The position numbers and the translations under genes were made by a program. Shown one piece after another: positions 1,165 through 2,160 of a stretch of 40,572 nucleotides of DNA. Every line of letters starts with the position of its first letter. Position 1 is the stretch's first letter. The notes below the pieces were generated by a model. That model was not told the DNA's origin. It did not search any database and worked only from the letters and a program-made list of their open reading frames with translations. The DNA is from Escherichia coli (GTDB lineage: Bacteria > Pseudomonadota > Gammaproteobacteria > Enterobacterales > Enterobacteriaceae): the NCBI RefSeq assembly GCF_003334355.1, contig NZ_QOWP01000032.1, one strand, 5' to 3'.

Positions 1165-2160
1165 ATGAACGATAAAGTTTTGCTCATCGGTGCCTCCGGA
1201 TTCGTGGGGACCAGACTCCTGGAGACGGCTGTTGCGGATTTTGATATCAAGAATCTGGATAAACAGCAGAGTCATTTCTATCCGCAAATCACGCAAATCG
1301 GTGATGTTCGCGACCAACAAGTTCTGGATCAGGCGCTGTCAGGCTATGACACAGTAGTGTTGCTAGCGGCTGAACACCGTGATGATGTCAGTCCTACTTC
1401 ACTCTACTATGATGTGAATGTTCAGGGGACGCGCAATGTATTGGCCGCTATGGAGAAAAATGATGTTAAGAACATCATTTTCACCAGTTCTGTTGCGGTC
1501 TATGGCCTGAACAAAACCAACCCTGATGAAAATCATCCTCACGATCCCTTCAACCACTACGGTAAAAGCAAGTGGCAAGCGGAAGAGGTTCTTCGTGAAT
1601 GGCATGCTAAAGCGCCTGATGATCGTTCGCTGACTATCATTCGTCCAACTGTTATCTTTGGCGAACGCAACCGCGGCAACGTTTATAATCTGCTGAAGCA
1701 GATCGCTGGCGGTAAGTTTATGATGGTTGGGGCTGGTACGAATTATAAATCAATGGCTTATGTGGGTAATATTGTTGAGTTTATCAAGTATAAACTGAAG
1801 AATGTGACTGCTGGTTATGAGGTTTATAATTACGTTGATAAACCTGATCTGAATATGAATCAACTGGTTACCGAAGTTGAACAGAGCTTAAGTAAAAAAA
1901 TCCCCTCAGCACACTTACCTTACGCTTTAGGCATGTTAGGTGGCTATTGCTTTGATATTTTGGGTAAAGTGACCGGCAAAAAATATGCTGTCAGCTCTGT
2001 GCGCGTGAAGAAGTTCTGTGCCACCACACAGTTTGATGCAACGAAAGTCCACTCATCCGGTTTTGTCGCACCTTATACATTGTCTCAGGGGCTGGATCGC
2101 ACTTTAAAATACGAATTTTTGCACGAAAAGAAAGATGACATTACGTTTGTTTCTGAGTGA
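1165..2160 (+). CDS. gne: NAD-dependent sugar 4-epimerase of the Gne/Gnu (Z3206-like) type
   Basis: 331-aa ORF with N-terminal GASGFVGTRL Rossmann motif and YGKSK catalytic motif; located between wcaM and galF, where gne sits in some E. coli lineages. Confidence 0.75.
   Translation: MNDKVLLIGASGFVGTRLLETAVADFDIKNLDKQQSHFYPQITQIGDVRDQQVLDQALSGYDTVVLLAAEHRDDVSPTSLYYDVNVQGTRNVLAAMEKNDVKNIIFTSSVAVYGLNKTNPDENHPHDPFNHYGKSKWQAEEVLREWHAKAPDDRSLTIIRPTVIFGERNRGNVYNLLKQIAGGKFMMVGAGTNYKSMAYVGNIVEFIKYKLKNVTAGYEVYNYVDKPDLNMNQLVTEVEQSLSKKIPSAHLPYALGMLGGYCFDILGKVTGKKYAVSSVRVKKFCATTQFDATKVHSSGFVAPYTLSQGLDRTLKYEFLHEKKDDITFVSE

What the first reader, a model, noticed from the sequence alone, without database searches (positions are those of the whole stretch)
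1165..2160. Accessory gne/gnu-like epimerase inserted between wcaM and galF
A 331-aa NAD-dependent 4-epimerase occupies a position that is, as far as I recall, empty in E. coli K-12. In GalNAc-containing serogroups this gene supplies UDP-GalNAc. The colitose-type O-unit inferred here is, as I recall, built on GlcNAc, which would make the gene's role unclear; it could be a lineage relic or serve another glycan.
Basis: partly seen in the sequence, partly recalled or inferred. Interest (0 to 1): 0.3.

Follow-up and report, generated by a model that had tools for sequence, protein, structure and literature searches.

The report
Gnu epimerase beside variant O111 cluster
The gene is an intact copy of Gnu, the known enzyme that converts the lipid-linked first sugar of an O-antigen from GlcNAc to GalNAc, at its usual chromosomal place, and it is probably needed here because this O111-like cluster has swapped its first glycosyltransferase for the O55 type, which is inferred to build on GalNAc.

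Summary
The ORF at 1165..2160 is real: 331 aa, between a wcaM remnant and galF. It is 93% identical in protein, but only 80% in DNA, to Z3206 of E. coli O157. Z3206 is the characterised Gnu, an undecaprenyl-diphospho-GlcNAc 4-epimerase. Synonymous sites are saturated while pN is 0.038, so the gene has been under strong purifying selection.

The position is not an insertion. wcaM-gnu-galF is shared by at least 16 enterobacterial species representatives, with an invariant TATAAT upstream of gnu. About 24% of complete E. coli genomes carry gnu there; K-12 does not.

The wcaM'-gnu-galF block is foreign to E. coli. Its closest relative is a Citrobacter sp., at 85% nt.

From gmd to wbdM it is a third orthologue of E. 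coli O111 and the Salmonella O35-type cluster (72-97% aa). Its first glycosyltransferase, however, is unrelated to WbdH (24%) and 82% identical to the first transferase of O55.

In O55, O128 and a Salmonella O55-orthologous cluster, this transferase sits behind gnu-galF. O55 and O128 are GalNAc-initiated.

Most likely, therefore, Gnu is a required pathway member of an undescribed O111 analogue that starts with GalNAc. This is inferred, not shown. The gene itself is ordinary.

The parts
1..77 (+). 3' end of an IS1 copy that truncates wcaM (colanic-acid cluster deletion wcaD'..'wcaM)
   Evidence: Window 1..22342 aligns to EA13 locus L001 18985..41363 at 99.8%. In EA13 the IS1A transposase CDS ends at the position that corresponds to window 62, and the wcaM pseudogene starts at window 78.
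78..1016 (+). wcaM remnant (C-terminal two thirds), foreign allele
   Evidence: WcaM models match at E=4e-183, positions 178-462 of 464. It is only about 74% nt identical to wcaM of most E. coli (4709 genomes fall in the 60-80% band). Protein identity is 89% to Citrobacter sp. L020.
1034..1061 (+). candidate sigma-70 promoter of gnu (TGGATA-16-TATAAT)
   Evidence: Consensus scan gives 10 of 12 matches. The TATAAT (1056..1061) is invariant, and the CTTACTGGAT block is conserved, in an alignment of 8 genera, although synonymous sites of the gene are saturated. This is a consensus match plus conservation; it is not proof of function.
1165..2160 (+). gnu: predicted undecaprenyl-diphospho-GlcNAc 4-epimerase (the finding)
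   Evidence: 331 aa. 93% aa and 80% nt identical to O157/O55 Gnu. pS=0.75 (saturated) and pN=0.038. Against Citrobacter sp., dN/dS=0.03. The exact protein is recorded in 412 collection blocks and is followed by galF and the same colitose cluster in all 10 places shown.
2398..3291 (+). galF
   Evidence: GalF equivalog model 673.5 bits, cut-off 659. Coordinates follow the EA13 annotation.
3555..3566 (+). ops/JUMPStart-like element AGCGGTAGCGTG ahead of the O-antigen operon
   Evidence: Read directly from the sequence. It matches 11 of 12 positions of the ops consensus GGCGGTAGnnTG, which I recall from memory. It places gnu and galF outside the RfaH-dependent operon.
3673..4778 (+). first glycosyltransferase (GT4), O55 type, frameshifted in this window; contains the (AAAGAC)6 repeat at 4219..4254 and an A6 tract at 4298..4303
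   Evidence: The intact EA13 allele (380 aa) is 82% aa identical to the first GT of O55 CB9615, 58% to that of O128, 61% to the Salmonella O55-orthologous cluster, and 24% to O111 WbdH. Relative to EA13 the window lacks 36 bp of repeat and 1 bp of the A-tract.
4798..15754 (+). O111/O35-family part of the cluster: gmd, gmm, manC, manB, colC- and colD-like genes, wzx, wzy, wbdL-like GT2, wbdM-like GT4
   Evidence: The gene order is the same as in O111. Protein identity is 72-97% to O111 and 74-94% to the Salmonella O35-type cluster L107. The three clusters are mutually about equidistant. Homology to L107 begins at about window 4761, just before gmd.

Best explanation
The ORF encodes a functional Gnu. 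This is an NAD-dependent extended-SDR epimerase that acts at the membrane on WecA's product, undecaprenyl-diphospho-GlcNAc, and inverts C4 to give undecaprenyl-diphospho-GalNAc. It is transcribed from its own conserved promoter, outside the RfaH-dependent O-antigen operon.

It arrived in this E. coli lineage as part of one imported block, wcaM'-gnu-galF-first GT, joined to an O111/O35-family colitose cluster.

In this cluster the WbdH-type first transferase of O111/O35 is replaced by the O55/O128-type GT4. By the structures of O55 and O128, that enzyme makes alpha-Gal-(1->3)-GalNAc-PP-Und. Gnu therefore supplies the acceptor for the first committed step. The predicted O-unit is the O111 unit (Col2-Glc-Gal-HexNAc) with GalNAc instead of GlcNAc at the reducing end.

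Shown: the identity of the gene, its selection, its synteny and the mosaic structure of the cluster. Inferred: the enzyme activity (by 93% identity to the assayed enzyme), the acceptor specificity of the GT4, and hence the need for Gnu.
For: - Identity: 93% aa identical to the assayed O157 enzyme, with the SDR motifs intact.
- Selection: synonymous sites are saturated against the E. coli, Salmonella and C. sedlakii alleles, yet pN is about 0.04. Against the nearest allele (Citrobacter sp.) dN/dS=0.03.
- Locus: wcaM-gnu-galF synteny in at least 16 enterobacterial species representatives, and an invariant TATAAT upstream of gnu in 8 genera.
- Linkage: the exact protein is followed by galF and this same cluster in all 10 genomic places shown.
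- Cluster core: from gmd to wbdL it is orthologous to O111 and to the Salmonella O35-type cluster. The three are mutually equidistant at 72-97% aa.
- First GT: O111 versus Salmonella WbdH are 79% identical, but the window's GT is 24% identical to both. Instead it is 82% identical to the first GT of O55, 58% to O128 and 61% to the Salmonella O55-orthologous cluster.
- Shared 5' module: all three of those clusters have gnu-galF-GT4-gmd.
- Chemistry of relatives: O55 and O128 start with GalNAc, and O111 starts with GlcNAc followed by Gal (PMC7685785; PMC10304059).
- Canonical O111 lacks gnu in two unrelated genomes and is expressed heterologously without it (PMC11705740).
Against: - No chemistry exists for this cluster, and I found no paper describing it.
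- The acceptor specificity of the O55-type GT4 is deduced, not assayed. The reasoning is that it is the only retaining-family GT in O55, and alpha-Gal-(1->3)-GalNAc is the only alpha-D linkage shared by O55 and O128. That linkage detail is from my memory of the published structures.
- Cunneen et al. report that the galF-linked gnu can segregate independently of the O-antigen cluster, and that a gnu or gne gene was present when not predicted in 10 of their 115 serogroups (PMC3682973).
- One Salmonella genome (L015) has the identical O55-type GT4 without gnu. Its wzy aligns only in two pieces, so that cluster may be decaying.
- Wzx and Wzy here are orthologues of enzymes that handle a GlcNAc-based unit.
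- In this particular window the GT4 is frameshifted. This isolate may make no O-antigen at all, or the assembly may contain a homopolymer error.
Confidence: 0.68

Rival explanations
1. Hitch-hiker. The gene is a working Gnu, but this O-antigen does not need it. The O-unit is GlcNAc-initiated as in O111/O35, and gnu is present only because it is physically linked to galF on the imported block.
For: [quoted passage not shown] The sugar-pathway, wzx, wzy and two GT genes are orthologous to O111/O35, whose unit has no GalNAc. Salmonella L015 carries the same GT4 family without gnu.
Against: The one gene that differs in kind from O111/O35 is the first transferase, and it is replaced by the type found behind gnu in the GalNAc-initiated O55 and O128 clusters. 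If unused, an active Gnu would divert UndPP-GlcNAc into UndPP-GalNAc, which the pathway could not then extend. That cost argument is my inference. The L015 counter-example has a disrupted wzy.
Confidence: 0.22
2. One reading: a Gne that makes UDP-GalNAc from UDP-GlcNAc, for this or another glycan.
For: This was the original annotation of the O55/O157 gene (Wang 2002, as cited). The fold is that of sugar-nucleotide epimerases.
Against: [quoted passage not shown] The protein matches the GalE model only partially (69.8 bits against a cut-off of 262; residues 4-166) and so falls outside the GalE/Gne clade. The gene lies outside the O-antigen cluster, whereas gne genes lie inside it.
Confidence: 0.04
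3. Relic, or a supplier for another UndPP-GlcNAc-initiated glycan. The gene is no longer used for the O-antigen and persists by chance or serves something else.
For: The neighbourhood is decaying in this lineage. IS1 truncates wcaM, several colanic-acid genes are pseudogenes in EA13, and the GT4 is frameshifted in the window.
Against: The ORF is intact and identical in every genome examined (412 collection blocks), including genomes with broken neighbours. Long-term dN/dS is about 0.03. No other GalNAc-initiated cluster was seen in the window, and the rest of the genome is not available.
Confidence: 0.06

Closest known systems
Gnu (Z3206) of E. coli O157:H7 and O55:H7: N-acetyl-alpha-D-glucosaminyl-diphospho-ditrans,octacis-undecaprenol 4-epimerase (clade D of Cunneen et al. 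2013)
   Same: Same length (331 aa) and 93% aa identity. Same SDR motifs. Same locus between wcaM and galF, with a conserved upstream TATAAT.
   Different: Only 80% nt identity, with saturated synonymous sites. It is therefore not an E. coli allele but one from another enterobacterial lineage; the nearest is Citrobacter sp. L020 at 96% aa and 90% nt. NCBI's pipeline names this allele only 'SDR family oxidoreductase'.
[quoted passage not shown]
   Same: Same gene order from gmd to wbdM. wzx, wzy, wbdL and wbdM are orthologous, and the colitose pathway genes are 88-97% aa identical.
   Different: The first transferase is non-orthologous (24% aa to WbdH). gnu is present upstream of galF, whereas two unrelated O111 genomes have none. 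wzx-wzy-wbdL are only 79.6% nt identical to O111, so megablast finds the cluster in just 9 of 5426 genomes and the annotation pipeline does not give its Wzx and Wzy the O111-family names.
5' module of the E. coli O55 cluster (also O128 and a Salmonella O55-orthologous cluster): gnu-galF-GT4-gmd
   Same: Colinear arrangement, with the GT4 82% aa identical to that of O55. Both GT4 genes carry an in-frame (AAAGAC)n repeat at the same place.
   Different: Downstream of gmd the genes are O111-type, not O55-type. There is no GT11 colitosyltransferase and no O55 wzx or wzy.
Gne: GalE-clade UDP-GlcNAc 4-epimerases encoded inside O-antigen clusters
   Same: NAD-dependent SDR fold, and C4 epimerisation of an N-acetylhexosamine.
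   Different: Different clade and substrate (lipid-linked versus nucleotide-linked) and a different genomic position.

Membership tests
Gnu (UndPP-GlcNAc 4-epimerase, clade D) | Close sequence relationship to the biochemically characterised O157 enzyme Z3206 | tested here: met
   309 of 332 aligned positions identical (93%), with no gaps.
Gnu (UndPP-GlcNAc 4-epimerase, clade D) | Extended-SDR cofactor and catalytic motifs (GxxGxxG, YxxxK) | tested here: met
   GASGFVG at residues 9-15 and YGKSK at 132-136, identical in Z3206.
Gnu (UndPP-GlcNAc 4-epimerase, clade D) | In Enterobacteriaceae, located just upstream of galF and outside the O-antigen operon | tested here: met
   wcaM'-gnu-galF order in the window. 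The same order is seen in O157, O55, O128, Salmonella and at least 16 other species representatives.
Gnu (UndPP-GlcNAc 4-epimerase, clade D) | Epimerises UndPP-GlcNAc and is inactive on UDP-GlcNAc | not testable with these tools
   Needs an enzyme assay with membrane-bound substrate. It is inferred only from 93% identity to the assayed enzyme.
Gnu (UndPP-GlcNAc 4-epimerase, clade D) | Associated O-unit has GalNAc as its first sugar | tested here: inconclusive
   No structure is known for this cluster. The presence of the O55/O128-type first GT argues for GalNAc, but this is inference.
Gne (GalE-clade UDP-GlcNAc 4-epimerase) | Full-length similarity to GalE-type epimerases | tested here: not met
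   GalE model TIGR01179 gives 69.8 bits against a cut-off of 262.3 and covers only residues 4-166. The best solved structures are generic SDRs at E=4e-18.
Gne (GalE-clade UDP-GlcNAc 4-epimerase) | Gene lies inside the O-antigen cluster (between galF and gnd) | tested here: not met
   The gene lies upstream of galF.
E. coli O111 / Salmonella O35 O-antigen gene cluster | Orthologous wzx and wzy and the same gene order | tested here: met
   wzx is 81% and 86%, and wzy 72% and 74%, aa identical to O111 and to the Salmonella O35-type cluster. The O111 and Salmonella proteins are no closer to each other (82% and 74%). The Wzy search found only these three groups.
E. coli O111 / Salmonella O35 O-antigen gene cluster | WbdH-type first glycosyltransferase | tested here: not met
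   24% aa identity to WbdH of O111 and of the Salmonella cluster, which are 79% identical to each other.
E. coli O111 / Salmonella O35 O-antigen gene cluster | No gnu upstream of galF (GlcNAc-initiated unit) | tested here: not met
   gnu is present here and absent in O111 strains 11128 and CT30. The 5' flank of the Salmonella cluster could not be recovered because the contigs start at wbdH.

The most novel reading that the evidence does not exclude
The window shows a natural 'first-sugar switch'. At the 5' end of an O111/O35-family cluster, gnu and its cognate O55-type first glycosyltransferase have replaced WbdH as one cassette. The result would be an undescribed O-serogroup whose unit is the O111 pentasaccharide with GalNAc instead of GlcNAc. 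It is carried by a widespread pig, poultry and human E. coli lineage that current in-silico O-typing would probably leave untyped.
Probability: 0.55. Interest if true: 0.45.

Novelty: new member of a known kind. Interest (0 to 1): 0.27.

Why it matters
The gene itself adds nothing new. It is a divergent allele of a known enzyme at its known locus, and papers already say that gnu upstream of galF signals GalNAc as first sugar.

There are three modest points of value.

1. The allele is annotated only as 'SDR family oxidoreductase' in public genomes although it is 93% identical to the assayed Gnu. A rule-based prediction of the first sugar would therefore miss it.
2. Following the gene exposes a hybrid cluster with an O55-type 5' end and an O111/O35-type remainder. 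This cluster is absent from the serogroup-named families and probably specifies a new O-antigen. That matters for serotyping and for O111-directed diagnostics or vaccines, because cross-reaction through the shared colitose branches is plausible.
3. It is a clean comparative case for assigning WbdH and the O55-type GT4 as the enzymes that act on UndPP-GlcNAc and UndPP-GalNAc respectively.

Tried and rejected
- NCBIfam has no Gnu-specific model. All 19 hits to the protein were far below their cut-offs, so family assignment rests on identity to Z3206.
- No solved structure is close (best E=4e-18, a generic SDR).
- I first took the cluster for O111, then for Salmonella O35. Both are rejected. Megablast finds wzx-wzy in only 9 genomes, and identity is 79.6% nt to O111 and 85% nt to the Salmonella cluster.
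- I tested whether the block came from Salmonella. It did not (78% nt). The best species representative is a Citrobacter sp. at 85%, which is too distant to be the donor itself.
- ARL09/232 carries the cluster without this gnu allele and looked like a natural test of need. It is uninformative, because an IS1 deletion removes gnu through manC.
- Salmonella L015 (same GT4, no gnu) looked like a counter-example. It is weakened by a wzy that aligns only in two pieces.
- The divergent hisA-hisD stretch seen against O111 11128 turned out to be a peculiarity of the O111 strains, not of the window.
- The papers by Wang 2000, Wang 2002, Samuel 2004, Stevenson 2008 and Rush 2010 are not held. Their content is cited only through reviews or marked as memory.
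- Searches for a description of an O111-like variant found nothing relevant.
- The promoter and terminator scan gave no more sites than shuffles. Only the cross-genus conservation gives the promoter any weight.

Full report
**Observation.** The ORF is present exactly as described: ATG at 1165, stop at 2160, 331 codons, + strand. Upstream lies the C-terminal two thirds of wcaM (WcaM model positions 178-462, E=4e-183). Downstream lies galF (2398..3291; GalF model above its curated cut-off). The window aligns end to end at 99.8% with E. coli strain EA13 from pig. In EA13 an IS1 copy truncates wcaM at the position equal to window 78.

**What the protein is.** It carries the extended-SDR motifs GASGFVG and YGKSK. 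It is 93% identical, without gaps, to the protein that NCBI names N-acetyl-alpha-D-glucosaminyl-diphospho-ditrans,octacis-undecaprenol 4-epimerase in O157:H7, O55:H7 and O128. That protein is Z3206, or Gnu. According to Cunneen et al. (PMC3682973), Rush et al. showed that it has no activity on UDP-GlcNAc and instead converts WecA's product UndPP-GlcNAc to UndPP-GalNAc. The window's protein matches the GalE model only weakly and partially (69.8 bits against a cut-off of 262). No close solved structure exists. It is therefore a clade-D Gnu, not a GalE-clade Gne.

**Selection.** DNA identity to the E. coli alleles is only 80%. The proportion of synonymous differences is 0.75, which is saturation, while the non-synonymous proportion is 0.038. 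Against the nearest allele found (Citrobacter sp. L020; 96% aa, 90% nt), dS=0.57, dN=0.017 and dN/dS=0.03. The gene has been under strong purifying selection throughout a genus-level divergence.

**The locus.**
- About a quarter of complete E. coli genomes (1298 of 5426) carry gnu at this place. Only 8 carry this allele, and there it is annotated merely as 'SDR family oxidoreductase'.
- A scan of one genome per bacterial species found gnu between wcaM and galF in at least 16 species representatives of Citrobacter, Cedecea, Enterobacter, Kluyvera, Lelliottia, Pseudescherichia, Trabulsiella, Siccibacter and Buttiauxella.
- In an alignment of the wcaM-gnu spacer from eight genera, a TATAAT hexamer (window 1056..1061) is invariant and a CTTACTGGAT block 16 bp upstream is conserved. 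These coincide with the promoter-like site found by the consensus scan.
- An ops/JUMPStart-like element (AGCGGTAGCGTG, 3555..3566) lies downstream of galF. gnu therefore has its own promoter and lies outside the O-antigen operon.
- The position is an old presence/absence polymorphism of the family, not an insertion peculiar to this strain. The K-12 spacer is not homologous to the gnu flanks.

**Origin of the block.** The wcaM remnant, gnu and galF are 74-81% nt identical to the usual E. coli sequences, 78% to Salmonella, and at best 85% to a Citrobacter species representative. The 5' flank of the O-antigen locus in this lineage is therefore imported from another, unsampled enterobacterial lineage.

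**The O-antigen cluster is not O111.**
- The gene order after galF is that of O111: GT, gmd, gmm, manC, manB, two colitose-pathway genes, wzx, wzy, GT2, GT4.
- Megablast finds wzx-wzy in only 9 of 5426 genomes. The O111 genes are 79.6% nt identical.
- A Wzy search of 5.8 billion proteins found only three groups: this one, E. coli O111 (72%) and Salmonella serovar Adelaide, which is serogroup O35 by my own knowledge.
- Per-gene comparison shows that the window, O111 and the Salmonella O35-type cluster are mutually about equidistant from gmd to wbdL (72-97% aa), as expected for three orthologous copies in three species.
- The exception is the first transferase. WbdH of O111 and of Salmonella are 79% identical to each other, but the window's enzyme is 24% identical to both. 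Homology to the Salmonella cluster starts just before gmd, at about window 4761.

**What replaced WbdH.** The nearest relatives of the first transferase are the first genes after galF in E. coli O55 (82% aa), in a Salmonella cluster orthologous to O55 (61%; my reading is serogroup O50) and in E. coli O128 (58%). In all three the arrangement is gnu-galF-GT4-gmd. The review of E. coli O antigens deduces GalNAc as the initial sugar of O55 from the gnu gene (PMC7685785). PMC10304059 describes both O55 and O128 as GalNAc-initiated, and O111 as GlcNAc-Gal-Glc with two colitoses on the glucose. From my memory of the published structures, O55 and O128 share the element alpha-D-Gal-(1->3)-beta-D-GalNAc. 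In O55 this is the only linkage that a retaining GT4 enzyme could make. The corresponding element in O111 is alpha-D-Gal-(1->3)-GlcNAc.

**Mechanism proposed.**
1. WecA makes UndPP-GlcNAc.
2. Gnu epimerises it to UndPP-GalNAc.
3. The O55-type GT4 adds alpha-1,3-Gal.
4. The WbdM- and WbdL-like enzymes add glucose and the two colitoses.
5. Wzx and Wzy flip and polymerise the unit.

The product would be the O111 unit with GalNAc at the reducing end. The gene identity, the selection, the synteny and the mosaic are shown. The activity, the acceptor specificity and the structure are inferred. I give this 0.68.

**Rivals.**
- Hitch-hiker (0.22). Cunneen et al. explicitly say that the galF-linked gnu can segregate independently of the cluster, and they found 10 cases of a gnu or gne gene present when not predicted among 115 serogroups. 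One Salmonella genome (L015) has the identical GT4 and no gnu, although its wzy aligns only in two pieces. Against this rival, the single non-orthologous gene of the cluster is precisely the one that meets the first sugar.
- UDP-GalNAc synthesis (0.04). This is contradicted by the assay on the 93%-identical enzyme.
- Relic, or use for another glycan (0.06). This fits poorly with an ORF that is intact and identical in every genome seen (412 collection blocks) even where its neighbours are broken.

**State in this window.** Relative to EA13, the GT4 gene lacks six of twelve AAAGAC repeats (in frame) and one A of an A7 tract. That splits it into ORFs 3661..4317 and 4308..4778. Across twelve genomes the repeat has 6-14 copies and the A-tract has 6, 7 or 9 bases. 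This isolate may therefore be rough, or the tract may be phase-variable, or the difference may be a homopolymer assembly error. If the frameshift is real, Gnu would make UndPP-GalNAc in this isolate with nothing to extend it.

**Comparison with the known, and novelty.** The gene is a new allele of a known enzyme at its known locus, so I class it as a new member of a known kind. What may be new is the hybrid cluster. I found no paper describing it. The annotation pipeline does not give its Wzx and Wzy any serogroup family name, although it does so for O111, O55, O128 and O157.

**Limits.**
- No chemistry is available.
- The key primary papers are not held, and the linkage details are from memory.
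- The 5' flank of the Salmonella O35-type cluster could not be recovered.
- The donor species is unidentified.

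Noticed in passing
window 4219..4254 and 4298..4303 (inside the first GT4, 3673..4778): There is an in-frame hexanucleotide microsatellite (AAAGAC)n encoding (Lys-Asp)n. It has 6 copies here, 7-14 copies in eleven other genomes of the lineage, 5 in O55 CB9615 and 2 in contig L018. Close by is an A-tract of 6, 7 or 9 bases. The A6 state frameshifts the gene in this window. This may be phase variation or linker-length variation of the first transferase, or homopolymer assembly error.
   Followed up: partly
window 18763..19767, minus strand, between ugd and wzzB: A second accessory SDR epimerase (334 aa) lies here. It is near-identical (E=5e-191) to PDB 5u4q (deposited as dTDP-glucose 4,6-dehydratase), and the next best match is a Bacillus cereus epimerase, 6zl6, which I recall to be a UDP-glucuronate 4-epimerase. 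It is probably a UDP-GlcA 4-epimerase (Gla/Uge type). Only 66-68 of 5426 complete E. coli genomes have it at 99% or more, namely O111 strains and this lineage. It is a pseudogene in O111 strains 11128 and CT30 but intact here. Neither the O111 unit nor the predicted unit contains GalA, so its role is unexplained.
   Followed up: partly
window 18500..22000 compared with 4800..15900: The stretch from the 3' end of ugd through the epimerase, wzzB and hisIE into hisF is 99-100% identical to O111:H- strain 11128, whereas the core of the O-antigen cluster is only 73-89% identical. The colitose genes at 9500..10500 are 96-99% identical. This mosaic suggests recombination between canonical O111 and this variant cluster.
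   Followed up: partly
L002 (O111 11128) and L110 (CT30), hisA-hisD; window 22500..26500: The O111 strains, not the window, carry a hisA-hisD segment only about 82% identical to the usual E. coli sequence. 87 of 5426 genomes fall in that 80-90% band. The foreign DNA that came with the O111 cluster seems to reach far into the his operon.
   Followed up: partly
window 1..1016; L001 and L019: IS1 has deleted wcaD' through 'wcaM, and wza, wzc and wcaC are pseudogenes in EA13, so colanic acid is probably not made in this lineage. In ARL09/232 the same IS1 deletes further, through gnu, galF, the GT4, gmd, gmm and part of manC.
   Followed up: yes
loci L039-L099 (species-representative scan): Proteins 65-74% identical to this Gnu over the full length are common in Bacteroidota (Muribaculaceae, Alistipes, Bacteroides, Prolixibacteraceae and others), and there are single hits in Cloacimonadota, Opitutales and Lachnospiraceae assemblies. 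That is unusually high identity for such distant phyla. Their genomic context was not examined.
   Followed up: no
L015, L016 (Salmonella enterica): A Salmonella cluster orthologous to E. coli O55 (wzx 58%, wzy 55%, GT11 59% aa) keeps an fcl gene that aligns only in two pieces between gmd and gmm, so fcl is probably a remnant. The cluster occurs both with gnu (L016, L017) and without it (L015). In L015 wzy also aligns in two pieces.
   Followed up: partly
public annotation of the 8 complete genomes with this allele (e.g. NZ_CP069712.1): The gnu allele is labelled only 'SDR family oxidoreductase', and wzy is labelled 'hypothetical protein'. Annotation-based or rule-based prediction of the first sugar and of the serogroup would miss both.
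   Followed up: yes
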